Below are positions 7,210 to 23,505 of a DNA stretch of 64,000 nucleotides, one piece after another. Numbering within the stretch: position 1 is the first letter of the stretch; each line of letters starts with the position of its first letter. The notes below the pieces were generated by a model. The model was not told the DNA's origin, did not search any database, and worked only from the letters and a program-made list of their open reading frames with translations. The stretch spans positions 57,364 to 121,363 of IMG/VR virus record IMGVR_UViG_3300043466_002831, one strand, 5' to 3'. Origin of the DNA: a virus (Duplodnaviria > Heunggongvirae > Uroviricota > Caudoviricetes). The translations under genes and the position numbers were made by a program.

Positions 7210-8421
7210 ATGAGATTAGATGAAAACATACTTAGAATAAAGGAAGTTATGGGATTGATTACCGAGGCGGAAGTAAATCCTCAAGGTGTTGAAATTAATC
7301 TTGGTAACTTATTTAAATCAGGTAAATATATTATAACACCTGAAATTGGTACTAAAATTAATTCTGCTATTAATCAAATCAAAGCATTTATTACTAAAAA
7401 TCCAGGTAAACCTGTTGTAGTTACAATAGAATCATCGGAATCAAAAGTACCTAATTATGACAGAGAAAAATTCCCATCAACTGGGAATAATGAGGTTGAT
7501 TTTACTAAAGAGAAAAAAATGGTGGTTGGAGCACTATCAAAAATTAGGGCAAATAATTTATCAACATATTTAAAACCTAAATTACCTAAAAGTGCTCAAA
7601 TAGTTATCAATGACAAGGGTGCTCAAGGACCTACTTGGGATGGCGTGAATGCGGATGCTGAAAAATATACTCAAAAACAATATGTTAAATTATTTGCAAA
7701 ACTTAACACTACCCAACCAACAACAAGTACGCCTAAAACAGACCCTAAATTTTGTACACAAGAAATAGAAAGTTCTGGTGGAAAGGGAAACCCAAGTAAT
7801 GGTTTTATCTCCGAGGTAAAAACTATTGAACTAGGTGAAGGTGAAAATACATTTAAATTCTTTATTGATTCTATAAGTGTACCTGATATTATGATTGTTG
7901 AATATAATGGGGTTACACAAACTACGGGATTTGTTGGTAGTGATACTGAATTATACCAAACTTTATTAGGGACTATAATTTATAACCGTTACGATAATTG
8001 GGGTAACCCAAGACCGTGGTGGTTCAAAAACCTTAAATTAGTTGGAGTACAACCATATCACGCTGACCAAGTTTTAAAAAAATATTCAGGTGATTGGACA
8101 CCTGATGATTTATCACACATCTATCCAAAGGCTCCTAAATTAAGTACTACTTTTTTTCAAACAATGACTAAAAATCCTGACGAATATGTTGGGAATTTTA
8201 AAGTATATAAATTAGGCTACGATTCAATTAGAACGATGGCGGCGGGAGTTGATGCTTGGAACGGTCCATCAAGTATAACTATTAATAAAGTTGCTGGTGT
8301 GAATACTGCCAAAGTTACTATCATTGGATTGATAGGTCAAACAAAATGGAAATTATATGTTAAGTGTGGTAACATTGCACCAATGTTAACAACTGCGGGT
8401 GGTTCAGGTGGGGATGCTTAA
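7210..8421 (+). CDS. hypothetical protein with variant NTM-like N-terminus
   Basis: MRLDENILRIKEVMGLITE resembles the MNLREDIERIQEVMGIE variant of the family motif. Confidence 0.55.
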   Translation: MRLDENILRIKEVMGLITEAEVNPQGVEINLGNLFKSGKYIITPEIGTKINSAINQIKAFITKNPGKPVVVTIESSESKVPNYDREKFPSTGNNEVDFTKEKKMVVGALSKIRANNLSTYLKPKLPKSAQIVINDKGAQGPTWDGVNADAEKYTQKQYVKLFAKLNTTQPTTSTPKTDPKFCTQEIESSGGKGNPSNGFISEVKTIELGEGENTFKFFIDSISVPDIMIVEYNGVTQTTGFVGSDTELYQTLLGTIIYNRYDNWGNPRPWWFKNLKLVGVQPYHADQVLKKYSGDWTPDDLSHIYPKAPKLSTTFFQTMTKNPDEYVGNFKVYKLGYDSIRTMAAGVDAWNGPSSITINKVAGVNTAKVTIIGLIGQTKWKLYVKCGNIAPMLTTAGGSGGDA

Positions 8422-8532
8422 CTTATTCGGTGAAAACTGTTGAATACTAAAAATATTATTAGTATTATTCATTGACCACACCAAAATGGTGTTTTTACGT
8501 CTATCGTGTAATTTACAAAACTACTTATCATT

Positions 8533-10752
8533 ATGAGATTATTAACTATTTTATTTTTGACCCTATTAACGTCAATAGGGTATACACAGTATTGCCCTGC
8601 ATTAGGTCCTGACCAATTACTTCCATGTGGTGTTGGTACAACAACATTAACCGCTGACCTATCCCAATGTGGTGGAGGTGGGGCAAACCCAAATCAAACA
8701 ACAAACTACGGTGTAACTAATATACCTTACGTTGCTCAAACAAACACAGGAACAAATTTGTTTATGACGGATGACTCCCAACAAGGGCCGTTCAGTATTG
8801 GATTTAACTTCTGTTTCTTTGGTACGACATACACTCAATTCTATGTTGGCTCTAACGGGTGGATTTCATTCGGAGCGGGACAACCAACAACCTTTACGTC
8901 TCAACCAATCCCAACAGGTAATGGTTTGGTACCTAAAAATTGTATCATGGGTCCTTGGCAAGATTGGCATCCTGGTCTTGGAGGTCAAATAAAATACCAA
9001 GTTCAAGGAGTTGCACCATGTAGAAAACTTGTAGTTAGTTGGATTAACATGCCGATGTTTTCATGTACAGGTAATCAAGGTACATTCCATATTGTAATAT
9101 ATGAATCGTCTAACTATATTGAGAATTATATTCAAAATAAACCTGCGTGTTTGCAGTGGCAAGGTGGGACTGCGACACAAGGAATTCATAATTCATTAGG
9201 TACTATTGGTATTGCGGTTGCTGGTAGAAACTCAACTGCGTGGACAGCAACAAACGATGCGTACAGATGGACACCAAGTGGTCCTGTAGTTACACCAACA
9301 TTAACTTGGTATCAGGTAGGTAATCCAACTCCAATAGGAACGGGACCAACAATTACGGTGACACCACCTGCGGCAGGAGCACAATATACTTGTAAATTTG
9401 TTTATCCTATTTGTAACGCGGGATGGTCAAATTGTAATTTAAGTACAGGTAACTTAGGACCCGATACGGTCTTTGTTGTGCCAGGTCCACCAAACTTACC
9501 ACCACCAATTGTTACGACATTCAACCCAAATTGTGAGGGTAGTTGTGATGGTGCAATCAATGTGGTTTCAAATGGAGGAACAGGTGTAAGTACCATTTCT
9601 TGGAATGGACAACCACCATTATTTACATTAACCAACTTATGTTCGGGAATTTATTCATTTACTATTGTGGATGCGGCAGGTTGTAATGTTTCAGGTACGG
9701 CAACTTTAGTTAATCCACCACCTGTAATCGCAAATCCAATCATTGCGTCAGATACGGTATGTTATCAGTCAAACAATATGGTATATACTACAACTGATTT
9801 AGGTGTGGGATATACATATCAATGGTCATCTGTTGGTAATATTGTGTCAGGTCAAGGGAATGATACGGTTGTTGTTGATTGGTCAGTATTACCTGCGGGG
9901 TTTATACCAAATGCTGTTGACATGATTGCCGTCAGTCCAAATGGATGTTTAAGTTTCCCCGTATCGTTTGACATCACAATATTCAATGTACTTCCTGTGA
10001 TAACACCTGTTGGACCATTCTGTTCTAACGATGAGTTCACTACGTTAAATGCAACACCAATAGGCGGAGTATTCAGTGGAACAGGGGTAATGGGTAATGA
10101 CTTTTATCCGTCTAATGCGGACACATTAAACAATATTATCACCTACACCTATACTCAAAGTGGATGTATCTTTGATACCACTACGGACATCATAGTATAT
10201 GAGCAACCAATCTTATCTCAAATCACTCCATACAACGAGTTCTTTGAAGTTTGTGACGGTGATTCAATACCAAGTATATATAGTGTAACTTCAACCGTTC
10301 TTGGTGGATATAATGAATGGACATTATTGGGTAACACAACTGAGTCGGATAACTTTAACATTGCTTGGGATGCATTTGGAACATTTGTATTATCAGTTGT
10401 AAGTTATGTTAATGGATGTGCATCACCACAACAACAAACAACAATCACAATTGCTCAATGTCCTCAAGAATTATTATACATTCCAAATTCATTTACACCT
10501 GATGGTAATGAGTTTAATAATACATGGAGACCCATAATTACTTCAGGGTTTGATAACACAGAATACCGAATGACGTTATATAATAGATGGGGTGAAATTA
10601 TATGGGAATCTCAAGACATCAACGAAGGATGGGATGGAACTTATAATAATAGTATAGTTCCTGTTGGTTCATATGTTTGGACGGTACAACTCAAGGCGTT
10701 AAAGACCGATTATAGACAGATATTGTCAGGTAGTTTGAATGTTTTAAAATAA
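8533..10752 (+). CDS. large secreted surface protein with T9SS type-B (gliding-motility-associated) C-terminal sorting domain
   Basis: Signal peptide MRLLTILFLTLLTSIGYTQ. C-terminus YIPNSFTPDGNEFNNTWRPI...YRMTLYNRWGEIIWESQDINEGWDG...GSYVWTV fits the T9SS type-B C-terminal domain pattern. Terminator follows. Confidence 0.7.
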   Translation: MRLLTILFLTLLTSIGYTQYCPALGPDQLLPCGVGTTTLTADLSQCGGGGANPNQTTNYGVTNIPYVAQTNTGTNLFMTDDSQQGPFSIGFNFCFFGTTYTQFYVGSNGWISFGAGQPTTFTSQPIPTGNGLVPKNCIMGPWQDWHPGLGGQIKYQVQGVAPCRKLVVSWINMPMFSCTGNQGTFHIVIYESSNYIENYIQNKPACLQWQGGTATQGIHNSLGTIGIAVAGRNSTAWTATNDAYRWTPSGPVVTPTLTWYQVGNPTPIGTGPTITVTPPAAGAQYTCKFVYPICNAGWSNCNLSTGNLGPDTVFVVPGPPNLPPPIVTTFNPNCEGSCDGAINVVSNGGTGVSTISWNGQPPLFTLTNLCSGIYSFTIVDAAGCNVSGTATLVNPPPVIANPIIASDTVCYQSNNMVYTTTDLGVGYTYQWSSVGNIVSGQGNDTVVVDWSVLPAGFIPNAVDMIAVSPNGCLSFPVSFDITIFNVLPVITPVGPFCSNDEFTTLNATPIGGVFSGTGVMGNDFYPSNADTLNNIITYTYTQSGCIFDTTTDIIVYEQPILSQITPYNEFFEVCDGDSIPSIYSVTSTVLGGYNEWTLLGNTTESDNFNIAWDAFGTFVLSVVSYVNGCASPQQQTTITIAQCPQELLYIPNSFTPDGNEFNNTWRPIITSGFDNTEYRMTLYNRWGEIIWESQDINEGWDGTYNNSIVPVGSYVWTVQLKALKTDYRQILSGSLNVLK

Positions 10753-10758
10753 TCTTAA

Positions 10759-10787
10759 CCCTCACAGAAATGTGGGGGTTTTTATTT
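10759..10787 (+). terminator. rho-independent terminator
   Basis: CCCTCACA-GAAA-TGTGGGGG followed by TTTTT. Confidence 0.75.
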
Positions 10788-10793
10788 AGTAAA

Positions 10794-10805
10794 GTATTTA
10801 TTAAT
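10794..10805 (+). promoter_or_regulatory. conserved upstream motif GTATTTATTAAT abutting ATG
   Basis: Identical 17-mer AAGTATTTATTAATATG also occurs at 18119-18135 and 34354-34370, each directly after a terminator. Confidence 0.5.
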
Positions 10806-11120
10806 ATGAACTTACGAGAAGACATAGAAAGAATTCAAGAGGTAATGGGTATTGAGGTATCAAATCTATTCAAACGAAAAATGCATATTGTTGACCGACT
10901 AATATATACTTTGATTGAAGATTCAATGTATCCATGTGATTATGATAATGAGGAAGAGTTTTATGAGGGAGTTATTTATGAACTCAGTTGGTTAGTTAAA
11001 AACAAGGACTTTGGTTTAGATGATGTTGAATGGTTAGATATCTATGATTACATAACAAATTTCAAAGAAGAAGAACTCAAAGGTTATTATAAAGAACGTT
11101 GTGGTGACAAAGATGTTTAA
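10806..11120 (+). CDS. NTM family protein (MNLxE variant)
   Basis: Real start is the ATG at 10806 (MNLREDIERIQEVMG). The track start 10770 lies inside the upstream terminator hairpin. Conserved GTATTTATTAAT motif immediately upstream. Confidence 0.65.
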   Translation: MNLREDIERIQEVMGIEVSNLFKRKMHIVDRLIYTLIEDSMYPCDYDNEEEFYEGVIYELSWLVKNKDFGLDDVEWLDIYDYITNFKEEELKGYYKERCGDKDV

Positions 11121-15469: not shown

Positions 15470-15751
15470 ATGGAACCAATATATAGAGTTGTTAGACATA
15501 AATTATATGAAAAGTGTAATTTGAAATATGAGTATTTTACCATACAAAAACAGGTAAATGTTTTGTGGTTTAAATGGTGGAGAACTATTAGTGGAACAGA
15601 TTCTCATCATGAATATTCCAGTACATATAACATAACATTTGATAATGAATCGGATGCTATATCAGCAATAAAGAAATTACAAAACGGAAACATACCTGAA
15701 GGGTGGGTATCGGAAGTATCAACAATATTAGATTTTAACAAGAAAACATAA
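15470..15751 (+). CDS. hypothetical protein
   Basis: 93-aa ORF. Confidence 0.45.
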   Translation: MEPIYRVVRHKLYEKCNLKYEYFTIQKQVNVLWFKWWRTISGTDSHHEYSSTYNITFDNESDAISAIKKLQNGNIPEGWVSEVSTILDFNKKT

Positions 15752-16389
15752 TGGCATTTTTAAACGCAAACTTACCAATAATAAACTGTTTAATAAGGAA
15801 CGAATTTTTATTTAACCATAAAAAAGGAATTGGTGAGTTCACACCATGTGATGTTCATTCGGTGGCATCAATTCAAGGTAGGACACCTTTATTTGAGGCG
15901 TTCTTGGAAAACGGAGTTAATTGGACAAGAAGACCAATACATGCATTTGTATGGAAAGAAGATGCTGAAGTATTAGATTTAACTGAATACATCTATTGGG
16001 ATTGTTTTAGTCCTTACATTGACGTAAAAGTTAGGGAGAGACTATCGGGGTTAAGAGCAGATTTAATATCCATCACAGGGGTTAAAAGACAGGGGACATA
16101 TCTATTCACGCTTGATTGGTCTCACGAAAATAGAAACAATCTTGATTTGGGGTTTTCTGAAACACCTGAACACAAATGTGGGCACGTATTTAAAATGGAT
16201 AATGGGAATTATTTTATATATCCTAACAACAGGATAATTTGGTTTGATAGAGCTTGGACATTTAATAGGATAGATAAGAATCCTGGATACGAAATAGATT
16301 TGAATATTTATTCGGTGGAGAATAAAACATATCACTCAACTGATTATTCATATATGACAGAATTTACAAAAGAACAAGATAATGATTAG
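15751..16389 (+). CDS. hypothetical protein
   Basis: 212-aa ORF. Confidence 0.5.
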   Translation: MAFLNANLPIINCLIRNEFLFNHKKGIGEFTPCDVHSVASIQGRTPLFEAFLENGVNWTRRPIHAFVWKEDAEVLDLTEYIYWDCFSPYIDVKVRERLSGLRADLISITGVKRQGTYLFTLDWSHENRNNLDLGFSETPEHKCGHVFKMDNGNYFIYPNNRIIWFDRAWTFNRIDKNPGYEIDLNIYSVENKTYHSTDYSYMTEFTKEQDND

Positions 16390-16699
16390 TTTAGAAACAT
16401 ATAAGGAGTTAGAAGAGAACGGTGTGTATATTCATTACATTCCTGAACATTATAATGATGGTACCAATCTAAACTTTTCAATAGAGTTTCGTAAATACAA
16501 AACTCAAACAGGATGGTATAATGACAACCACGAGTTTGGGGATGTATTAGATACAATGACTTCATCCATATTATTAGCCAAGTGGTATTTGGAAAATCCG
16601 AGAAGAATAGAACTAATCAATGGTAGTATTACTGACCCTGAGCATTATCAGTACGGTGAAGACCTTATGGAGTTTTTAAATCCTATTTTTAAGGTTTGA
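16382..16699 (+). CDS. hypothetical protein
   Basis: 105-aa ORF. Confidence 0.45.
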   Translation: MISLETYKELEENGVYIHYIPEHYNDGTNLNFSIEFRKYKTQTGWYNDNHEFGDVLDTMTSSILLAKWYLENPRRIELINGSITDPEHYQYGEDLMEFLNPIFKV

Positions 16700-16731
16700 G
16701 AAAACTCGGTTAGGAAGGAGAGAAAGACCTT

Positions 16732-18087
16732 ATGGATAAACGTCATTACAATAGATGGTCTGATGAAGACTTAAAAAAAGAAGCGTTAAAGTATTCAACA
16801 TTATCGGATTTCAAAAATAACGCTAGTTCACAGTATAGGCAATCTTTAAAAAGGGGTAAAGAATTTTTTGATAACATAACATCTCACATAACAAGAAAAT
16901 GTGCGAATCTTTCTAAAAATGAATTAAAACAAATTGCTTTGAGATATGAATATAAAGGAGAATTTCAAAAATATGATAAAGCGGCATATCTTTCGGCGTT
17001 AAGAAGAGGACGTGAATTTTTTAACGACATTACTTCTCACATGAAAAATAAGTTAAATTATTGGACTGATGAGATTTTAAGAAATGAAGTACTTAAATAC
17101 CAAACGAAACTTGAATTCAAAAAAAACAATTTTAAAGCGTATCAGGCTGCAATGTCTAAAGGTAAAAATTTTTGGTATGATGTAACATCTCATATGGATA
17201 ATAGTCATTTTACAAGATGGACCAAAGAATTATTAACACAAGAAGCTTTGAAACATAATACTTTAACTGATTTTAAGCAAAAAAGTAAAGGTGCTCATAG
17301 TGCTGCAAAAAAAATAGGTATCGATTTCTTTAATTTAATAACTTCACATATGCCACAACCTAAAAGGTGGACCTACGAAGAATTAAAAAATGAAGCCTTG
17401 AAATATACCACAAAGTCAGACTTCCGAAAAAACAATAGGAATGCATATCAAGTTTCAAAAGAAAGAAAGATATTAAATGATATTTGTACACACATGGAAA
17501 AAATAGGTAGCAAATACTCAAGAATTATTTATACGTATGAATTTTCCGATAATAGTGTTTACGTAGGATTGACCTACAAACCATCTCAAAGACATAGTGA
17601 CCACATGAGCAAAAAAAATTCTGCGGTTTTCCTTTATATGGAAAAAACAGGGTTAGTACCTATAAAAAAAATAATGACCGATTTTTTAAATAAAGATGAT
17701 GCATCTGAGATGGAAACTGAAATACTGAACAAATACCGTAATGAAGGATGGAAAATTTTAAATCGTACTAAAACTGGAGGGTTGGGTGGATTTACAAGAC
17801 GTTGGACACCCGAAAACATAGAAAAAGAAGCACTTAAGTATGATACACTAACTGAATTTTATAAAAATTCACGCGCAGTAACTGTCGCCGCCAAAAAAAT
17901 AGGTGAAGACTTTTATAAAAAAATTATTTCTCATATGAAACGAACTACAGTTTGGACCGAAGAACTTTTAAGAGAAGAATCCCAAAATTATAAAACTAGA
18001 ACTCATTTTGCAAGGGGAAGTACGAGCGCATATTATACTTCTAAAAAGAGAGGATTATTAGATAAGTTTTTTCCGAGAAAGAAATGA
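16732..18087 (+). CDS. GIY-YIG homing-endonuclease-like protein embedded in seven ~48-aa tandem repeat modules
   Basis: GIY-YIG core IYTYEFSDNSVYVGLTYKPSQRHSDH...N. Seven repeats of the pattern W(T/S)xEEL(K/R)xEALKYxT(K/L)xxFxKNxxxAYxxxxK(R/K)GxxFFxxITSHM, five before and two after the nuclease core. Confidence 0.7.
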   Translation: MDKRHYNRWSDEDLKKEALKYSTLSDFKNNASSQYRQSLKRGKEFFDNITSHITRKCANLSKNELKQIALRYEYKGEFQKYDKAAYLSALRRGREFFNDITSHMKNKLNYWTDEILRNEVLKYQTKLEFKKNNFKAYQAAMSKGKNFWYDVTSHMDNSHFTRWTKELLTQEALKHNTLTDFKQKSKGAHSAAKKIGIDFFNLITSHMPQPKRWTYEELKNEALKYTTKSDFRKNNRNAYQVSKERKILNDICTHMEKIGSKYSRIIYTYEFSDNSVYVGLTYKPSQRHSDHMSKKNSAVFLYMEKTGLVPIKKIMTDFLNKDDASEMETEILNKYRNEGWKILNRTKTGGLGGFTRRWTPENIEKEALKYDTLTEFYKNSRAVTVAAKKIGEDFYKKIISHMKRTTVWTEELLREESQNYKTRTHFARGSTSAYYTSKKRGLLDKFFPRKK

Positions 18088-18116
18088 CCATCACTATAAT
18101 GGTGGGGGTTTTTCAT
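18088..18116 (+). terminator. terminator-like hairpin (degenerate copy)
   Basis: CCATCACTATAATGGTGGGGG followed by TTTTT. Confidence 0.5.
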
Positions 18117-18135
18117 TATTAAAGTATTTATTAAT

Positions 18136-18447
18136 ATGAATCTAAAAGAATCCATAAGAAGAATAATAAGAGAAGAATTTAAATCGAAATTCTTTATTAG
18201 AAGAGTTGATTTAGATTTAGCTAAAGACATGCTTCCAATTAATGCAGAACAAGTATACCATGAAACTGAAAGTTATGAGCAATTCAAATATGAATTAACT
18301 TTAAGGGTTGTGGAAGCAATTATGTGGAATAAGTATGAACTTGGTTGGGAAGATTTACCTGAACAAGAAGAAATAGAATACGTGACTAAACTTTCGGATG
18401 CATTCGAGAAAACAATTAAACGGTTATATCATATTTATCATAATTAA
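18136..18447 (+). CDS. NTM family protein (MNLKESIR variant)
   Basis: MNLKESIRRIIREEFKSK; the AAGTATTTATTAATATG cassette lies upstream. Confidence 0.65.
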   Translation: MNLKESIRRIIREEFKSKFFIRRVDLDLAKDMLPINAEQVYHETESYEQFKYELTLRVVEAIMWNKYELGWEDLPEQEEIEYVTKLSDAFEKTIKRLYHIYHN

Positions 18448-18451
18448 TAAT

Positions 18452-18530
18452 ACAATTCATTCACTCACTACAAAGGGAGACTCCATTCGGGTCTCCTTTT
18501 TCGTTCACTCATGTATTGTATTATTTATCG
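18452..18530 (+). repeat. ~75-bp direct repeat copy A (contains terminator-like hairpin GGAGAC...GTCTCC + TTTTT)
   Basis: CATTCACTCACTACAAAGGGAGACTCCATTCGGGTCTCCTTTTTCGTTCACTCATGTATTGTATTATTT is nearly identical to the copy at 20808-20880. Confidence 0.8.
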
Positions 18531-18639
18531 TAACGGCCATTACGGTAATCCACATTACGATAATAATGCGTCATAAAAGGAACAAAACATATATACTTTG
18601 TCCCTTATAAGACACATTAAGTTAAATGAGGGGTGGGGA

Positions 18640-19077
18640 TTAATAAGGGTATGAAACAGTACGAGCATTCGTATTGAATACTCCATTAATAATATTCAAT
18701 AAAGGTTTACTCCAAATATTGATATCACCGAATAAACTTTCAAGTCTTTCATACATTTCCTCAGATAATACGATGAGGTCAAACTCCTCGTCACTTACGT
18801 CAGGACTATTTTGGCAAGGTTCAGGTAACTCATCTTTAAGTTCCTGAGGATAATCACCATTATCATCGTAATACTGTCTATTAACCAATTTAAATAGGTA
18901 GTCATCGTATTCCCTATCAGGTAGAACAAACCCTATGGCATAAGGGTCACAACATACACCCATACCACAATTAAAATCAGCCCAATTATAATAACAATTA
19001 TCAAATCCCTCAAAAGAAATATCAATGTAGTTGTGAATAACTTTAGTAAGTTTAGATTCTGAGATAGTTACTTTCAT
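18640..19077 (-). CDS. NTM-like family protein
   Basis: MKVTISESKLTKVIHNYIDISF on the minus strand. Confidence 0.55.
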   Translation of the reverse strand: MKVTISESKLTKVIHNYIDISFEGFDNCYYNWADFNCGMGVCCDPYAIGFVLPDREYDDYLFKLVNRQYYDDNGDYPQELKDELPEPCQNSPDVSDEEFDLIVLSEEMYERLESLFGDINIWSKPLLNIINGVFNTNARTVSYPY

Positions 19078-19386
19078 ATAAAATAAATATAGGTCAACAA
19101 CCTTATATTCCCTTACGGTAATATTCTTTCAGATTACAGTTATACTTTCAGGTATAATACCGTTCGGTATAATACAATTACATCTCTATAAAGGATATGT
19201 GGTAATAATTAGGACATATCCTAAACAGTAATGTATAATTGTTTTACATGATACGGTTCTCATGTATAGAAAGTTTACATACGGTAAATTTAAATGATTT
19301 TACCGTTTACTCTAAATCTGACGGTAAAATATTTGAAGATATAAAAAATATTAATATATTTGTATCATTAACTAACAATAAGAACA

Positions 19387-19614
19387 ATGAGTATAGAGAT
19401 TACTTTACCACCATTTGATGAATCAAGTGCATTCCACAAAGCGGATACGATTGATGGTCAATGGTTATCATTGGTCAAAACTGAAAGGGAATGGCAAAAA
19501 CAAAAACTGATTGAGATATTCGGACATGAAAACGCAGGACCAAGATGGCAATACATGAACGGATTGATTGATATGGCATTACGATATATTGAATTAACTA
19601 AAGAGGAAGAATAA
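19387..19614 (+). CDS. hypothetical small protein
   Basis: 75-aa ORF. Confidence 0.45.
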   Translation: MSIEITLPPFDESSAFHKADTIDGQWLSLVKTEREWQKQKLIEIFGHENAGPRWQYMNGLIDMALRYIELTKEEE

Positions 19615-19653
19615 TATTAAAATAAGAATGTTTTGTCTTAACAATATTTATAC

Positions 19654-19661
19654 TATATTTG
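19654..19661 (+). promoter_or_regulatory. -7 promoter box TATATTTG, 4 nt upstream of ATG 19666
   Basis: TAnnTTTG-N4-ATG. Confidence 0.5.
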
Positions 19662-19665
19662 TACT

Positions 19666-19842
19666 ATGATGACTACAATACACTCCATGACAGAAGAACA
19701 GGCGATTAAGAACAAGGAACGTTTTAATTCCAAACGAGAACAGATTAAAGAATCCGACATAGCACTATGGAATTATTTGTGCGGGGATGGAGATACCCAA
19801 CACCTGTTTGACTATTACGAACTTTTAGAACAAGGTAAGTAA
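19666..19842 (+). CDS. hypothetical small protein (58 aa, below ORF-track cutoff)
   Basis: ATG preceded by TATATTTG-N4; a perfect terminator hairpin follows. Confidence 0.4.
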   Translation: MMTTIHSMTEEQAIKNKERFNSKREQIKESDIALWNYLCGDGDTQHLFDYYELLEQGK

Positions 19843-19856
19843 AAAAATATTTAAAA

Positions 19857-19882
19857 CCTCACTGTAATGGTGAGGTTTTTTT
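19857..19882 (+). terminator. rho-independent terminator
   Basis: CCTCAC-TGTAATG-GTGAGG perfect stem followed by TTTTTTT. Confidence 0.8.
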
Positions 19883-19883
19883 G

Positions 19884-19891
19884 TATATTTG
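19884..19891 (+). promoter_or_regulatory. -7 promoter box TATATTTG, 4 nt upstream of HNH ATG
   Basis: TAnnTTTG-N4-ATG. Confidence 0.55.
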
Positions 19892-19895
19892 TATT

Positions 19896-20804
19896 ATGTT
19901 AGTTCGCGAGTGTCCATCATGTAATAGTAATATCACATATTCTAATAAGGATAATTTTAATAGTGCCAATAAAAAAGGTAGTTTGTGTAAAAAGTGTGCC
20001 GAGGCAGAGAAACACGGTAGAAAAACTATTACGGACATAAATACATTTTTTAGACTCTATAGCGAAGAACGTAGAAGTGTGGAGGATATTGCAAAACACT
20101 TTGAAGTGTTACCTAGCACTGTTAAAAATTATGCCAACCATAATAAAATAAACAGACGAGATTACGATATTATTATGGAAAAAGAAGGTAAAAAAAGGTG
20201 TCATGGATGTAAATCTTTTTATGTCTTTGATGACTTTCATAAAAACAATAACACTAGAGATGGATTGGTAACCAAGTGTAAAAAATGTATGTGTGAGAAA
20301 TCAAATGATTATAAAGATAAAAATCTTGAACGAGTGTTAAAATCTACAAAGGAATATTCAAAACGAATGAAAGAAGAAAATCCTGAGACCTTTAAAAAGT
20401 GGAGAAAAACCGCTAAAAAAAATTACTTAAACAGTGAGATTGGTAAGTGGGATAGTAAATGTCGTTCTATATTAAAAAGAGCTTTATCTAAAATGGGTTT
20501 AACTAAAAATGATACCACTAACAAATTATTAGGGTATTCACCTAAACAACTTCTTGATTATTTAAAAACTTTTGATTTATATTATGAGGGTGGATATGAA
20601 GTTGACCACAAAGTACCTATTAGTTATTTTAAATTAGGAACTCACCCAAGTATCATTAATTCATTATGTAATTTACAATTAACCACCATTAAATATAATC
20701 AAAATAAAAGTAATAAGTTTGCCGACCCAATTACTATTGATTATTATGATAATATTAAACTACATATTAAAGAAGAATGTCTTAATAAACTTATTGTGAA
20801 ATAA
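19896..20804 (+). CDS. HNH homing endonuclease with two N-terminal Cys4 zinc-finger-like modules
   Basis: CPSCNS...CKKC and CHGCKS...CKKCMC; C-terminal HNH signature YEVDHKVPISYF...N. ATG at 19896 preceded by TATATTTG-N4. Flanked by a 75-bp direct repeat. Confidence 0.7.
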   Translation: MLVRECPSCNSNITYSNKDNFNSANKKGSLCKKCAEAEKHGRKTITDINTFFRLYSEERRSVEDIAKHFEVLPSTVKNYANHNKINRRDYDIIMEKEGKKRCHGCKSFYVFDDFHKNNNTRDGLVTKCKKCMCEKSNDYKDKNLERVLKSTKEYSKRMKEENPETFKKWRKTAKKNYLNSEIGKWDSKCRSILKRALSKMGLTKNDTTNKLLGYSPKQLLDYLKTFDLYYEGGYEVDHKVPISYFKLGTHPSIINSLCNLQLTTIKYNQNKSNKFADPITIDYYDNIKLHIKEECLNKLIVK

Positions 20805-20807
20805 TAC

Positions 20808-20880
20808 ATTCCATTCACTCACTACAAAGGGAGACTCCATTCGGGTCTCCTTTTTCGTTCACTCATGTATTGTATTATTT
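20808..20880 (+). repeat. ~75-bp direct repeat copy B
   Basis: Same sequence as 18452-18530, immediately downstream of the HNH endonuclease gene. Confidence 0.8.
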
Positions 20881-21490
20881 CCCCCGCCTAATAGTCGGGT
20901 CCCCACCTAAACGAATAGACAGGTGAGATGTGATGTAGTGGATTATATGAGATTACATATAAGATAAGACCTTCGGTAAGAATTATATGTAATAAGATAT
21001 AATCCATAGAGTGTGGGTCAGGGATGGACTCGTAAGATAAGACCTACGGTCTATAATTAGAGAGTCCATTATTCTCCCACTTTCCTCCACTACGAGTTGT
21101 CTCCACTACGAAGGGACATAGATTGTCCACCTAACGAGGGGGTTTAATAACAAGTCGGTTCCCTCGTTGAAGGGGGATAAAATCCCTCTGAAACACTCCC
21201 TACGGTCGTTTCCCCGCCCTCTACACTTAGTGTTCCTTTTTTATCTGGAAATCGTATATAGTAAAAAAATGGTCCTCCTGATAGTGTCAGGGGGAAAAAA
21301 GTGGTCTTAATACTATCGTAATAAAGGAAATGGTGGTAGAAAGTGGGGGGAATTAGTACATAGGTGGGGAACCAAAAACCCGTCAAGGGATTATCCCCAA
21401 TGCAACGAGTCCCCTGACATTTTGACATTTCCAAATTTTTACCCCTAAAGTTATCAACAATCGACATTTATTTTCCCCCCTGACATAGTG
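20881..21490 (+). ncRNA. GC-enriched structured non-coding element (candidate structured RNA, intron-like or ribozyme-like; or replication-origin structure)
   Basis: Nested perfect hairpins: 20941-21004 (GATTATAT / TTACATATAA arms with a UUCG loop) and 21024-21069 (ATGGACTC / GAGTCCAT enclosing AGACC-UACG-GGTCT). Further helices AACGAGGG / CCCTCGTT and GGGGAT / ATCCC. No convincing ORF. Confidence 0.4.
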
Positions 21491-21554
21491 TCATGTGGAT
21501 AACTTAATTGTTAATAACTTTATTTTTATATGTTCCCCAACTATAATTAACGTC

Positions 21555-21797
21555 ATGAAGTATGTACTGACAGAAATAGATGACAGGATTAGAGTGACCA
21601 TCTCTAATGACGATAAAGAAATAGGTCTCCTTTATTTCGAGAAGGCTAAACTCAACTTTACAAATAAACCATTAAGCATGGGGTCATGGGCATGTGTCGA
21701 TGCCAAGATAGAAGATGATAGTATATTCCATGAAGGGTTCACCCCCAAACAAATGGTGGGGGAATGTCAGGACCTGATTAAAGCGGCGGGGTATTAA
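21555..21797 (+). CDS. hypothetical small protein (uncertain)
   Basis: ORF downstream of the structured non-coding region; MKYVLTEIDD is the more likely start than the track start 21495. Confidence 0.3.
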   Translation: MKYVLTEIDDRIRVTISNDDKEIGLLYFEKAKLNFTNKPLSMGSWACVDAKIEDDSIFHEGFTPKQMVGECQDLIKAAGY

Positions 21798-22262
21798 TTG
21801 TCCTTCTTAAAGAACATATTATATATCCCCACGACTAACCATCCCATGAATAGGTAAAACAAAATCTTTCTCATTAGAGTCTCTCTTTAATAAGTTTCTT
21901 AATATCATCCAAAGTGGTGACCTCTTTGTCCCCCAACATATCCTTAATAGAATTGTAAGCCCAAAGAACTGCGTAACCGATAACAACTGCTTTAATGAAT
22001 TTTTTCATGGTATATATATTTTCAACAAATATATGGAATAGTTGACACTATTCCAAATAAATTCAAACAATATTTCAATCCACCAAAGGGGCGGGGAAAA
22101 AAGATTAACCTCCTATAAAAAAATATAGGACGAGCTGCCTCTGATTAAGCTCCAAGGTATGTTCCACCTAGCCCTTCCTACTCCATCTTTCAGACAATAC
22201 AAAGGTACGGATTATATTTGACAACCCCAAACCTAAACACGAATATTTATTAATATATTTAA

Positions 22263-22700
22263 ATGACCATGACAGAAGAAGAACTATATGACAACTATGA
22301 ATTTAAGGTGACCAAGAGAGCCCTGATGAGAGAGTTTCCATTCATTAAGAATGTGTATGTGAAAGACCCCGCCACTATTGACCAATACAAGTCCTTCATC
22401 TTCTTAGATGCCGATATTAATCCCTATGAGTTCTCACATATGTATGGACTTAAGGTGGACAGGATAACAGACAAATACCTAAGACGAGGTGAACCTTATT
22501 GGGGACCATACCTTTCCCTGTTCATTACAGGTGGGGTTGATGATACATGGCCCATTAAGAAAGCCATTGGTGATTTGATTGATGGTATTCATAAGTCACC
22601 TGCCATACCACAAGAACTAAAGTTGGATAGGGAACTTGAGATATCATCTTACCATGCCAATCCTGATACTCTACCACGTGACATCATGTCATACAAATAA
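22263..22700 (+). CDS. hypothetical protein
   Basis: 145-aa ORF within the non-coding-rich hub. Confidence 0.5.
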   Translation: MTMTEEELYDNYEFKVTKRALMREFPFIKNVYVKDPATIDQYKSFIFLDADINPYEFSHMYGLKVDRITDKYLRRGEPYWGPYLSLFITGGVDDTWPIKKAIGDLIDGIHKSPAIPQELKLDRELEISSYHANPDTLPRDIMSYK

Positions 22701-22856
22701 AAGTTATTAACAATGGGAGGGGAGGGATAAAAGTTATTAACATGTCCCCCCTTTGGCATGGGGGCATACCCCCCTATGGGTACCCCCTCCCCCCCGTATC
22801 CCCCCTTACATACTGTCATATTGTCAGTTTAGGGGGGATAATCCCCTGTATAACGG

Positions 22857-22901
22857 GAAATAAAATTTTGGGAAAAAAATGTTCCTTTTTTGACTATTTA
22901 T
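22857..22901 (+). repeat. 45-bp direct repeat copy 1 (promoter-region repeat)
   Basis: GAAATAAAATTTTGGGAAAAAAATGTTCCTTTTTTGACTATTTAT is 43/45 identical to the copy at 23079-23123. Confidence 0.75.
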
Positions 22902-23007
22902 CTTATAGTAAAACTTATATATATGAAAAAGAATATCTGTTTATTGATTAAAAAAATTACTTTCGGGAAAGTTTGTCTCGGATGGTGTAAAATTTAATTA
23001 ACTTTAA

Positions 23008-23032
23008 CCCCTCCCACAAAGAGGGGTTTTTT
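23008..23032 (+). terminator. rho-independent terminator
   Basis: CCCCTC-CCACAAA-GAGGGG followed by TTTTTT. Confidence 0.7.
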
Positions 23033-23078
23033 ATTTCCTATAAACACGACCCCCTGTTTCGATTTAGTCCTATATACT

Positions 23079-23123
23079 GAAATAAAATTTTGGGAAAAAA
23101 ATGTCCCTTTTTTGACTATTTAT
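23079..23123 (+). repeat. 45-bp direct repeat copy 2
   Basis: GAAATAAAATTTTGGGAAAAAAATGTCCCTTTTTTGACTATTTAT, immediately upstream of the gene starting at 23129. Confidence 0.75.
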
Positions 23124-23128
23124 ATATT

Positions 23129-23428
23129 ATGGAAAAAGCGTTTGAGAAACTTCTTAGGAAATTGTTGTTAGAAAAGTATCCGATTTATTTGGATGTCCAT
23201 GTTTCCGAATCGGGAAAGTATACCCCTAATAAAAGAATTTGTTATGAGGTATTTCTTATTATTTTTGATGAATATTATGGAACATCTTGGAGTACAAAAC
23301 AAATTGATGAGGTTAAAGAATATGTTAATACTCTTGCAAAATATATGGATATAAATATTTGTGGGATTTATCATGAAGTTGTTAATGAGCAAGAATGGGA
23401 AGAAATGAAATTACCTATTAAAAATTAA
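23129..23428 (+). CDS. hypothetical protein
   Basis: ATG at 23129 (MEKAFEKLL...). The track start lies in the upstream 45-bp repeat. Terminator follows. Confidence 0.5.
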   Translation: MEKAFEKLLRKLLLEKYPIYLDVHVSESGKYTPNKRICYEVFLIIFDEYYGTSWSTKQIDEVKEYVNTLAKYMDINICGIYHEVVNEQEWEEMKLPIKN

Positions 23429-23430
23429 AC

Positions 23431-23455
23431 CCCCTCCCAACAGAGGGGTTTTTTT
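23431..23455 (+). terminator. rho-independent terminator
   Basis: CCCCTC-CCAACA-GAGGGG followed by TTTTTTT. Confidence 0.75.
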
Positions 23456-23505
23456 ATAATCCTCCAAATGTATGTTATAAAGGTGGGATTTGGAGGATTA
23501 TAACT
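23453..23505 (+). other. 13-bp perfect inverted repeat hairpin
   Basis: TAATCCTCCAAAT ...22 nt... ATTTGGAGGATTA, directly after a terminator. Confidence 0.6.

What the first reader, a model, noticed from the sequence alone, without database searches (positions are those of the whole stretch)
18452..20880. HNH endonuclease cassette bracketed by a 75-bp direct repeat
Nearly identical ~75-bp elements, each with an internal terminator-like hairpin, lie at 18452-18530 and 20808-20880. They bracket a 2.3-kb segment containing a minus-strand NTM gene, two small ORFs and an HNH endonuclease with two zinc-finger modules (19896-20804). Direct repeats flanking a homing-type nuclease are consistent with a mobile cassette, a recombination-mediated insertion, or reuse of a terminator module by repeat-directed shuffling.
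Basis: seen in the sequence. Interest (0 to 1): 0.65.

Follow-up and report, generated by a model that had tools for sequence, protein, structure and literature searches.

The report
Shared palindromic terminator module bracketing phage genes
The two 81-base repeats are real copies of a palindromic, terminator-like module that related uncultured phages reuse at the ends of many different accessory genes, so they look like swap points for gene cassettes rather than the ends of one mobile HNH element.

Summary
An 81-nt direct repeat lies at 18446-18526 and 20800-20880, with 79/81 bases identical and 68 exact. These are the only two copies in the 64-kb window. Each copy is a long imperfect palindrome: 11+3 bp AT-rich outer arms, two YTCACTCA boxes, and a 12-bp stem followed by T5. 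Each starts on the TAA stop of the gene upstream.

The element is a family. A pattern scan found 106 good instances across about 100 contigs of related uncultured phages, and none in 185,579 bacterial and archaeal genomes. I counted 37 different left flanks and 26 right flanks. Both stems covary. The element is better conserved (84-100%) than the sequence next to it (60-91%). Left and right arm variants follow their own flanks, which is what crossovers inside the element would produce.

The 2.35-kb interval is not the mobile unit:
- The minus-strand gene 18640-19077 is a backbone gene, present in relatives that lack the HNH.
- The insertion/deletion actually seen against a close relative is 1,472 bp (19332-20803). 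It carries a promoter, two small ORFs and the HNH, and only its right end abuts repeat 2.

Best reading: a moron/PeSL-like terminator and recombination module in a hyperplastic region rich in homing endonucleases, just upstream of a conserved roughly 0.6-kb non-coding locus. It is a new variant of a known kind and moderately interesting.

The parts
18446..18526 (+). Element copy R1. It is an 81-nt palindromic stop-plus-terminator module. The TAA stop of ORF 18136-18447 overlaps its first two bases.
   Evidence: 110 bits
20800..20880 (+). Element copy R2. The HNH stop codon (20802-20804) is the TAA inside its left arm AATAAT. It is 100% identical over 81 nt to the copy in distant contig L001 and to the copy in L105.
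   Evidence: 107 bits
18527..18567 (.). Flank module with an inverted repeat (TATCGTAACGGCCATTACGGTAATCCACATTACGATAA). It follows the element in 24 instances that have 6 different upstream genes.
   Evidence: (I13)
18640..19077 (-). 145-aa ORF with no family match. It is a backbone gene, conserved at 45-97% aa identity in relatives with or without the HNH.
19169..19280 (.). Conserved intergenic module holding a 28-nt inverted repeat (19179-19206 / 19208-19235). In other contigs it lies directly 3' of the element.
   Evidence: (I1)
19332..20803 (+). 1,472-bp segment present here and absent from the close relative L105. It starts with a Bacteroidetes-type promoter (TTTG-N19-TATATTTG, 19332-19362) and ends inside the HNH stop codon. 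AAATA is found at both junctions.
19387..19614 (+). 75-aa ORF with no family match. It is seen only in near-identical contigs.
19666..19842 (+). 58-aa ORF. In four lineages its homologue sits just upstream of whichever endonuclease gene occupies this slot (L033, L034, L085, window).
19853..19879 (+). Ordinary intrinsic-terminator hairpin, followed directly by the -7 box TATATTTG of the HNH gene.
19896..20804 (+). 302-aa HNH-type endonuclease gene. Domain order: Zn finger, HTH, Zn finger, helical linker, then a C-terminal D-H...N...N motif.
   Evidence: phrog_1035, 2.4e-14; HNH_4, E=0.022
20881..21520 (+). Conserved non-coding locus immediately 3' of R2. It is a candidate structured plus-strand RNA, and its 3' part carries conserved DNA motifs.
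18136..18447 (+). 103-aa ORF ending on R1. It belongs to a multi-copy paralogue family in related large phage contigs.
16732..18087 (+). 451-aa GIY-YIG protein, a second endonuclease gene in the same variable region. It is replaced by a different ORF in the closest relative, L113.

Best explanation
The two repeats are copies of a conserved 81-nt module. It joins a stop codon to an intrinsic terminator, wrapped in a longer palindrome. A lineage of uncultured, probably Bacteroidota-infecting, large phages places it at the 3' end of accessory genes in a hyperplastic region. At the RNA level the inner 12-bp stem plus U5 should end transcription of the gene upstream. That would insulate whatever follows: for R2 a conserved non-coding locus, for R1 the convergent gene 18640-19077. 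At the DNA level the near-invariant 54-nt core acts as a portable patch of homology. Recombination between copies, in one genome or between co-infecting relatives, would join any left flank to any right flank, so self-contained promoter-gene-terminator units are gained, lost and swapped. The HNH gene is one such cargo. It is a free-standing homing-type endonuclease that entered, or was lost from, the slot just upstream of R2 together with two small ORFs and their promoters. Shown here: the anatomy, the family, covariation of both stems, the mosaic flanks, and the 1,472-bp indel. Inferred: that the element terminates transcription, that exchange happens by homologous recombination within it, and that the HNH cuts DNA.
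For: (1) Family size: a pattern anchored on the two boxes found 11 viral contigs and 90 metagenome stretches, and none in 185,579 bacterial and archaeal genomes. That gives 106 good instances.
(2) Position: in 31 of 38 distinct left contexts the upstream ORF's TAA lies at offset -2, -1 or +2 of the left arm. This holds for 26 of the 27 contexts with an ORF of at least 85 codons. Orientation always matches the upstream gene.
(3) Structure: 94.2% of cells pair, 9 pairs change on both sides, and 0 of 500 shuffles reach these values. Sliding the 3' partners drops pairing to 40-48%. Inner-stem variants GGGAGAC/GTCTCC, GGTGGAC/GTCCAC and GGGGAAC/GTTCCC occur with freely varying loops.
(4) Mosaic flanks: 37 left-flank by 26 right-flank clusters give 52 combinations. 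Twelve left clusters join more than one right cluster, and 11 right clusters join more than one left. Arm variants follow their own flank, which leaves mismatched chimeras such as L119 against L101, and L002 against L043/L063.
(5) Conservation: the element is 84-100% identical to R1/R2 while the adjacent non-coding locus is 60-91% identical, and the two values do not track each other.
(6) Cassettes bracketed by two copies elsewhere: a GIY-YIG-like endonuclease (L068, 752 nt), UmuD+UmuC (L057/L095), a small ORF plus a 518-aa homing endonuclease (L085), and four ORFs (L100).
(7) Cargo abutting the left edge includes five endonuclease genes, two DNA methyltransferases, NAMPT, a nitroreductase and YceI.
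(8) L105 lacks window 19332-20803 exactly. That segment begins with a promoter and ends in the HNH stop.
(9) L034 and L085 are 99.7% identical up to the slot, then carry unrelated endonuclease genes.
Against: - No transcript data exist, so termination is inferred from shape and position.
- Both boxes and the outer arms are conserved, and the 3' box and 3' arm lie beyond the U-tract. A plain terminator does not need them, so the element probably has a further function that this model does not explain.
- Two indels against close relatives (L105, L113) have only one end at the element, with AT-rich microhomology at the other. That points to illegitimate recombination, not exchange between two copies.
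- No contig fetched shows the product of R1 x R2 recombination.
- Copy number is low: 2 in 64 kb.
- Metagenome assemblers can join strains wrongly at an 81-nt shared repeat, so some mosaics seen in a single contig could be artefacts. The main junction types do recur in several independent samples.
Confidence: 0.6

Rival explanations
1. The element is a functional RNA or DNA signal kept by selection, for example a regulated terminator or antitermination site, or a processing site read through its two YTCACTCA boxes. It appears twice simply because two places need it. On this view it plays no special part in gene shuffling.
For: The boxes survive in divergent members whose hairpin and arms have changed (L012, L015, L001 type B, L105 type D). 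Both stems covary, which indicates selection for structure. The element is tied more closely to what follows it (about 6 recurrent right flanks) than to what precedes it (37 left flanks).
Against: Selection alone does not explain 100% identity over 81 nt between genomes whose neighbouring DNA is about 75% identical. It also does not explain why element identity is uncorrelated with flank identity, or why mismatched chimeric arms exist. This reading is compatible with the recombination model rather than exclusive of it.
Confidence: 0.15
2. Homing endonucleases drive the pattern. The conserved element, or its junction with the left flank, is a homing target. Cuts at its left edge let endonuclease genes insert there and stimulate repeated gene turnover. 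Duplicated elements would be by-products of repair.
For: Five endonuclease-type genes from different families end exactly on the element: HNH302, the 518-aa phrog_559/9084 protein, a 514-aa GIY-YIG, a 239-aa T5orf172 protein, and a 227-aa phrog_314 protein. L068 is element-endonuclease-element. The HNH segment is present or absent at the left edge of R2. Unrelated endonuclease genes replace each other in one slot in L034 and L085. A near-invariant sequence makes a good homing site.
Against: Most genes that abut the element are not nucleases (methyltransferases, NAMPT, UmuDC, YceI, nitroreductase). Genomes that carry the endonuclease keep an intact element. No cleavage site is known. The adjacent conserved non-coding locus is an equally good candidate target.
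Confidence: 0.12
3. The element is a miniature non-autonomous transposon (MITE-like) that inserts at TAA stop codons.
For: It has terminal inverted arms of 11-14 nt and sharp ends. It occupies many unrelated left contexts and is nearly identical across divergent genomes.
Against: There is no consistent target-site duplication. Copy number is low: 2 in 64 kb, and 0-2 per contig of up to 177 kb. It is never inside a gene and never inverted relative to the upstream ORF. Arm variants track the flanks, which is not expected of a unit that moves as a whole. No transposase was found among the neighbouring ORFs scanned.
Confidence: 0.07

Closest known systems
PeSL (promoter-early stem-loop) regulatory cassettes of T4-type phages (Arbiol et al. 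2010, PMC2839356; Comeau et al. 2014, PMC4122927)
   Same: Both are conserved intergenic motifs of about 80-100 bp that start at the stop codon of the upstream gene in AT-rich sequence and contain a terminator stem-loop. Both concentrate in hyperplastic regions, flank ORFan and accessory genes that differ between close relatives, and are proposed to serve as homology for recombination that deletes, inserts or swaps the flanked genes.
   Different: No promoter lies inside this element; the promoters sit in separate downstream modules. This element is one long palindrome with covarying outer arms and two conserved direct boxes. There are only 2 copies in 64 kb, against about 50 per PeSL genome. 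The core is nearly invariant across genomes that are only about 75% identical nearby. The lineage is uncultured and appears to use Bacteroidetes-type promoters. Mini-circles have not been tested.
Morons of lambdoid and other tailed phages: autonomous promoter-gene-terminator insertions (concept of Hendrix and colleagues, from my own knowledge)
   Same: The segment 19332-20803 plus R2 is a self-contained unit with its own promoters and a terminator. It is present in one genome and absent from a close relative, and the cargo genes are accessory.
   Different: Morons are not defined by a shared terminator sequence. Here one nearly identical terminator module serves dozens of unrelated cargo genes.
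Free-standing homing endonuclease genes of T-even phages (seg and mob genes; from my own knowledge)
   Same: The gene lies between genes, encodes a modular DNA-binding region plus an HNH or GIY-YIG nuclease, has a patchy distribution among relatives, and is one of several unrelated nuclease genes competing for the same slot next to a conserved sequence.
   Different: Cleavage and homing have not been shown. The nuclease gene is only one of many kinds of cargo found at this element.
Integron attC sites and bacterial REP/BIME palindromes (from my own knowledge)
   Same: Both are imperfect palindromes that directly follow ORFs and mark cassette or gene boundaries.
   Different: By inspection there are no attC core sites (RYYYAAC / GTTRRRY) and no REP GTAG motif. 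No integrase or RAYT was seen nearby. The element is found only in viral-type contigs and in none of 185,579 bacterial and archaeal genomes.

Membership tests
PeSL-type mobile regulatory cassette | Conserved intergenic motif that begins at the stop codon of the upstream gene | tested here: met
   The stop codon lies at offset -2, -1 or +2 of the left arm in 31 of 38 distinct contexts. In the window the stops are at 18445-18447 and 20802-20804.
PeSL-type mobile regulatory cassette | Contains a stable stem-loop that acts as a terminator or attenuator | tested here: inconclusive
   The structure is supported: a 12-bp stem plus T5, with covariation and 0 of 500 shuffles reaching the observed values. 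Termination activity itself was not measured.
PeSL-type mobile regulatory cassette | Contains a strong early promoter within the motif | tested here: not met
   The sigma-70-type scan places no site inside 18446-18526 or 20800-20880. No TAnnTTTG box lies in the element by direct reading. The nearest Bacteroidetes-type promoter is at 19332-19362.
PeSL-type mobile regulatory cassette | Lies at indel and replacement boundaries between related genomes in hyperplastic regions | tested here: met
   Comparisons with L105, L113, L034/L085, L003/L008 and L002. There are 52 left/right flank combinations.
PeSL-type mobile regulatory cassette | Dozens of copies per genome | tested here: not met
   The covariance model finds only 2 copies in 64 kb, and about a dozen distinct hits in 383 kb of related loci.
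PeSL-type mobile regulatory cassette | Recombination between flanking copies yields mini-circles | not testable with these tools
   This needs reads or PCR across the predicted circle junction (20803 joined through the element to 18527).
MITE / non-autonomous transposon | Terminal inverted repeats | tested here: met
   The arms AATAATACAAT and ATTGTATTATT pair 11/11, and three further pairs follow.
MITE / non-autonomous transposon | Target-site duplication flanking each copy | tested here: not met
   The bases flanking the 106 instances show no consistent duplication. After the right arm come T, C or A runs with no relation to the left flank.
MITE / non-autonomous transposon | Many dispersed copies in either orientation, including within genes | tested here: not met
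   There are two copies in the window. Every instance is co-oriented with, and abuts, an upstream ORF end or an intergenic sequence.
HNH endonuclease (ORF 19896-20804) | Catalytic beta-beta-alpha-metal motif residues (D-H ... N ... N) | tested here: met
   D237, H238, P241, N259, L260, N268 and K271 are invariant in the 6 homologues. The ORF matches PHROG 1035 'endonuclease VII' at 2.4e-14.
HNH endonuclease (ORF 19896-20804) | Scores above the curated threshold of a Pfam HNH family | tested here: not met
   PF13395 HNH_4 scores 15.1 bits, E = 0.022, against a cut-off of 22. There is no NCBIfam hit.
HNH endonuclease (ORF 19896-20804) | HNH fold recovered by structure comparison | tested here: inconclusive
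Homing endonuclease gene (behaviour) | Patchy presence in otherwise collinear relatives | tested here: met
   It is absent from L105 with a precise junction. Only 5 homologues were found among 5.8 billion proteins. Different nuclease genes occupy the same slot in L034, L085 and L033.
Homing endonuclease gene (behaviour) | Cuts the nuclease-free allele and is copied into it | not testable with these tools
   This needs a cleavage assay on L105-type DNA or co-infection crosses.
Rho-independent terminator | G+C-rich stem followed by a U-run, just downstream of a gene | tested here: met
   GGGAGACTC/GGGTCTCC plus TTTTT at 18475-18503 and 20829-20857. The position relative to stop codons is given.
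Integron attC site | R''/R' core sites and an associated integron integrase | tested here: not met
   No RYYYAAC / GTTRRRY pair lies at the element ends by direct reading of the alignment. No recombinase was found among the neighbouring ORFs scanned. The rest of the genome was not examined.

The most novel reading that the evidence does not exclude
The element could be more than a passive terminator. It might be the recognition site of a dedicated system, read through its two conserved YTCACTCA boxes and covarying outer stem. Candidates are a cassette-exchange mechanism, a homing target, or a regulated antiterminator. On this view it creates a fixed landing pad for accessory and endonuclease genes directly upstream of a previously undescribed structured RNA of about 0.5 kb in a clade of uncultured large phages.
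Probability: 0.15. Interest if true: 0.75.

Novelty: new variant of a known kind. Interest (0 to 1): 0.5.

Why it matters
Phage genomes are mosaics, but the sequences at which modules are exchanged are known for only a few groups, chiefly PeSLs in T4-type phages. Here one 81-nt module marks the 3' end of dozens of unrelated accessory genes in an uncultured phage lineage: endonucleases, DNA methyltransferases, NAMPT, UmuDC and others. Its arm variants are consistent with crossovers inside it. That gives a concrete, searchable marker for cassette boundaries in metagenomic phage contigs. It also gives a testable case of how terminators, homing endonucleases and hypervariable regions go together. 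The conserved boxes and the neighbouring non-coding locus are leads to functions not yet described.

Tried and rejected
- GenBank phage records: megablast of 16000-23500 and blastn of the element plus the non-coding locus found no match. No annotated relative is available.
- Rfam at gathering threshold on the whole window, and at E <= 1 on 18000-22400: only two weak hits that look like chance.
- Close relatives of the HNH in viral contigs: none. The large protein search gave only 5 homologues.
- More copies of the element in the window, by motif searches and by covariance model with filters off: none.
- Target-site duplications: none seen.
- attC or REP signatures: none by inspection.
- The long-range helix 20897-20909 / 21361-21373 in the non-coding locus could not be scored, because that part of the alignment is out of register.
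- I first suspected a group I intron, a HEARO-like RNA or a replication origin in 20881-21520. Rfam gives no support for the first two. There is only one perfect DnaA box (21494), and 1-mismatch DnaA-box matches across the whole window are not clearly enriched (39 against 31 expected).
- The minus-strand ORF 21144-21467 was rejected as a gene, because its homologues are broken into fragments of 31-91 codons.
Full report

Yes. The repeat finder reports one 81-nt direct repeat at 18446-18526 and 20800-20880, with 79/81 bases identical. The 68-nt stretch 18458-18525 recurs exactly at 20812-20879 and nowhere else in the window; none of 100 shuffles gave any match.

The two mismatches both lie in the left arm: ACAATTC in copy 1 and ACATTCC in copy 2.

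Each copy folds as one long hairpin:
- an 11-bp AT-rich outer stem (AATAATACAAT / ATTGTATTATT), plus 3 more pairs;
- internal loops carrying two direct boxes (CATTCACTCAC and CGTTCACTCAT);
- an inner 12-bp stem, AAAGGGAGACTC-CATTC-GGGTCTCCTTT(T), followed by Ts.

The fold energy is -25.6 kcal/mol, z = -7.6 against shuffles.

Copy 1 begins on the TAA stop of ORF 18136-18447. The HNH stop (20802-20804) is the TAA inside the left arm of copy 2.

The arrangement with both copies recurs in independent contigs from other samples (L009, L010), so it is not an assembly artefact of this window.

**2. What kind of genome is this?**

- The window is 29-39% G+C and has no tRNA genes.
- It has no nucleotide match in 50,697 GenBank phage records.
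- Most large ORFs have no Pfam or PHROG family.
- One ORF (8533-10752) has a CHU_C type IX secretion domain. It is 55% identical to a translated stretch of a 635-kb uncultured phage record.
- Relatives are IMG/VR viral contigs of up to 304 kb.
- The Bacteroidetes-type -7 box TATATTTG is enriched: 21 found against 9.1 +/- 2.8 expected. The full TTTG-N19-TAnnTTTG pattern is also enriched: 5 against 1.0.
- Ordinary terminators in the window are a hairpin plus T-run followed directly by that -7 box.

From these points I infer a large phage of a Bacteroidota host. This is an inference and has not been shown.

**3. The element is a family.**

The 28-nt hairpin core occurs in 8 viral contigs, with the whole 80 nt conserved but the flanks different.

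A pattern anchored on the two boxes, with a free hairpin between them, found:
- 11 viral contigs;
- 90 metagenome stretches;
- none in one genome from each of 185,579 bacterial and archaeal species.

After removing simple repeats, 106 instances remain.

Hairpin variants keep pairing: GGGAGAC/GTCTCC, GGTGGAC/GTCCAC, GGGGAAC/GTTCCC and GGGGAC/GTCCCC. Loops vary freely.

On a 29-sequence alignment the proposed structure pairs in 94.2% of cells, and 9 pairs change on both sides. None of 500 shuffles reaches the observed values. Sliding the 3' partners drops pairing to 40-48%.

A covariance model built from this alignment gave three results:
- It finds only the two copies in the window.
- In related loci that were not selected for the element, it finds diverged members.
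- In those diverged members the hairpin and arms differ, but a YTCACTCA box persists on both sides.

In the pattern-derived set, box conservation cannot be judged, because the pattern required the boxes.

**4. Where the element sits.**

In 31 of 38 distinct left contexts, the stop of the upstream ORF falls at offset -2, -1 or +2 of the left arm. This holds for 26 of the 27 contexts with an ORF of at least 85 codons.

The right side is much less varied:

| Right flank | Instances | Distinct upstream genes |
|---|---|---|
| Conserved non-coding locus that follows copy 2 here | 34 | 23 |
| Inverted-repeat module that follows copy 1 here | 24 | 6 |
| Three other recurrent modules | the remainder, apart from 12 unclassified or truncated instances | - |

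One of those three other modules is the inverted-repeat block found at 19169-19280 in the window.

Genes that abut the left edge:
- five endonuclease-type genes: this HNH; a 518-aa protein matching PHROG homing-endonuclease families; a 514-aa GIY-YIG protein; a T5orf172 protein; and a 227-aa protein matching phrog_314;
- two DNA methyltransferases;
- NAMPT, a nitroreductase, YceI and UmuC.

These are typical accessory cargo.

**5. Evidence for exchange at the element.**

Clustering the flanks gives 37 left and 26 right clusters in 52 combinations. Twelve left clusters join more than one right cluster, and 11 right clusters join more than one left.

Arm variants follow their own flank:
- One left flank and left arm (ATAAT) is found with the matching right arm (ATTAT) plus one right flank in L101. 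In L119 it is found with a non-matching right arm (ATTGT) plus a different right flank.
- The o365-type left flank keeps ACAATTC, while its right arm switches with the right flank (L002 against L043/L063).

This pattern is what crossovers within the invariant core would produce. It also explains the many unpaired cells in the outer stem.

The element is 84-100% identical to R1/R2, while the adjacent non-coding locus is 60-91% identical. The two values do not track each other: L002 gives 98.8% against 70%, and L090 gives 92.6% against 91%. Copy 2 is 100% identical over 81 nt to the copy in L001, whose homologous genes are only about 75% identical at the DNA level.

Two-copy contigs show bracketed cassettes:
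- L068: element, GIY-YIG-like endonuclease, element (752 nt).
- L057/L095: element, UmuD and UmuC, element.
- L085: element, small ORF, 518-aa endonuclease, element, non-coding locus.
- L100: element, four ORFs, element, non-coding locus.

In L033 a 56%-identical HNH homologue is bracketed by two copies of a different family member.

**6. Is the 2.35-kb interval a mobile cassette?**

Not as a unit.

- The minus-strand gene 18640-19077 has homologues in relatives that lack the HNH: L001, L005, L002, L105, L113 and others.
- The close relative L105 has the order: minus-strand gene, intergenic region, element, non-coding locus. It lacks exactly window 19332-20803, a stretch of 1,472 bp, with AAATA at both junctions.
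- The 56 nt to the left of that junction are 100% identical between L105 and the window.
- The missing segment starts with a full Bacteroidetes-type promoter (19332-19362) and ends in the HNH stop. It therefore behaves as a self-contained expression unit that borrows copy 2 as its terminator.
- The closest relative, L113, has an extra 146-aa gene between the 103-aa ORF and copy 1.
- L034 and L085 are 99.7% identical through the element and the small ORF. They then carry unrelated endonuclease genes, and homology resumes at 86% in the non-coding locus.
- L003/L008 go straight from a homologue of window ORF 15470-15751, through one element, to the non-coding locus.
- No contig fetched shows the 103-aa ORF, one element, then the non-coding locus, which would be the R1 x R2 deletion product.

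The two repeats therefore mark two junctions in a hyperplastic region, not the ends of one insertion.

**7. The HNH gene.**

- It matches PHROG 1035 (endonuclease VII) at 2.4e-14.
- It matches Pfam HNH_4 only weakly: E = 0.022, below the curated cut-off.
- Only five homologues exist among 5.8 billion proteins.
- In those homologues D237, H238, P241, N259, L260, N268 and K271 are invariant, as are cysteines of the second zinc module.
- The AlphaFold model is confident, with mean pLDDT 87.8. Whole-protein fold searches recover only an HTH domain.

Domain order and patchy distribution fit a free-standing homing endonuclease. Activity is untested.

**8. Mechanism, and how sure I am.**

I put 0.6 on the combined reading: a terminator that also serves as a portable homology patch, in the manner of PeSLs and morons.

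Against a pure version of this reading:
- The conserved boxes and the outer stem lie partly beyond the U-tract, so a further function is likely.
- Two of the indels have only one end at the element.
- Metagenome assemblers can create false joins at shared repeats, although the main junction types recur across independent samples (for example the L105-type junction in L083, L090, L105 and L123).

Rivals, with my confidence in each:
- a selected regulatory signal with no role in shuffling (0.15);
- endonuclease-driven turnover at a homing target (0.12);
- a MITE (0.07; no duplications, low copy number, fixed orientation).

**9. Novelty and score.**

The kind is known: conserved terminator-containing intergenic cassettes that mediate modular shuffling. 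This member differs in architecture (no internal promoter, a long palindrome, two boxes), in copy number, in cross-genome invariance and in lineage.

I class it as a new variant of a known kind, with interest 0.5. The neighbouring non-coding locus (see the items noticed in passing) may prove the more novel object.

Noticed in passing
window 20881-21520 (+): This is a conserved non-coding locus directly after repeat 2, richer in G+C than its surroundings. More than 60 homologous stretches were found in the fetched loci, at 60-91% identity. Invariant blocks alternate with hairpins whose sequences are replaced wholesale. On 23 non-redundant sequences, 40 predicted pairs are 95.4% paired, against 50-66% when the partners are slid. 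There are 34 double-changed cells against 15 +/- 2.7 in shuffles. Several invariant U-G pairs work only on the plus strand. There is no Rfam match. It is a candidate structured RNA of about 0.5 kb, and possibly the real target of the endonuclease genes that gather just upstream.
   Followed up: partly
window 21410-21525: The 3' part of that locus carries near-invariant DNA motifs: CCCCTGACATTTTGACA, CTGACATAGTGTCATG and AAAGTTATC(A/C)ACA. It also holds the only perfect DnaA-box sequence in the window (TGTGGATAA at 21494). This may be an operator or promoter region, or an origin. One-mismatch DnaA-box matches across the whole window are not clearly enriched (39 against 31 expected).
   Followed up: partly
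window 21144-21467 (-): This 107-codon minus-strand ORF inside the non-coding locus looks conserved by BLAST (63% aa). Its homologues are broken into fragments of 31-91 codons, so it is most likely not a gene.
   Followed up: partly
window 16732-18087 (+): This 451-aa GIY-YIG protein (Pfam 1.5e-6; phrog_20046, 6e-70, in 4 stretches) has internally repeated modules of about 60 aa. The closest relative, L113, has a different 207-aa ORF in its place. A 514-aa homologue ends directly on the element in L047. It is a second endonuclease gene in the same variable region.
   Followed up: partly
window 18136-18447 and 18125-18177; loci L012-L027: The 103-aa ORF belongs to a family with several paralogues per contig in related large phage contigs, where gene context is not conserved. 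The first 50 nt or so of the gene, plus its leader, are conserved at the DNA level (81-91%) in front of other ORFs in L001 and L004-L008.
   Followed up: no
window 18541, 19114, 19280, 15048: The octamer TACGGTAA is enriched: 9 found against 1.65 expected, with 0 of 100 shuffles reaching 9. It clusters in the intergenic regions of the bracketed segment and in the flank modules that follow the element in other contigs. It may be an operator motif.
   Followed up: no
window 19169-19280: This intergenic block with a 28-nt inverted repeat is 82-94% conserved in other contigs. There it lies on the other side of the 145-aa gene (L105), or directly after the element (L039, L069, L101 and others). It is another movable non-coding module.
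   Followed up: partly
window 19355, 19654, 19884 and window-wide: TATATTTG (-7 box of the Bacteroidetes type) is enriched at 21 found against 9.1 expected. Copies sit a few bases upstream of each of the three genes in the 1,472-bp indel segment, which points to a Bacteroidota host.
   Followed up: partly
L057 3276-4984, L095 7239-8947; L064 4148-5749: Related contigs carry accessory genes as element-bounded cargo. L057 and L095 have a UmuD-like S24 peptidase plus a Y-family polymerase between two elements. L064 has a 533-aa NAMPT ending on the element.
   Followed up: partly
L105 4373-4468; L001 6500-6581; L030/L033 after the HNH homologue: Diverged versions of the element (different arms and hairpins, same boxes) occupy the positions equivalent to R1 or R2 in other lineages. 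In L033 the HNH cassette is bracketed by two copies of such a variant.
   Followed up: partly
window 8533-10752 (+): This 739-aa ORF has a C-terminal CHU_C type IX secretion sorting domain (4.5e-13). The relative L034 lacks this gene and its neighbours (7210-11120).
   Followed up: no
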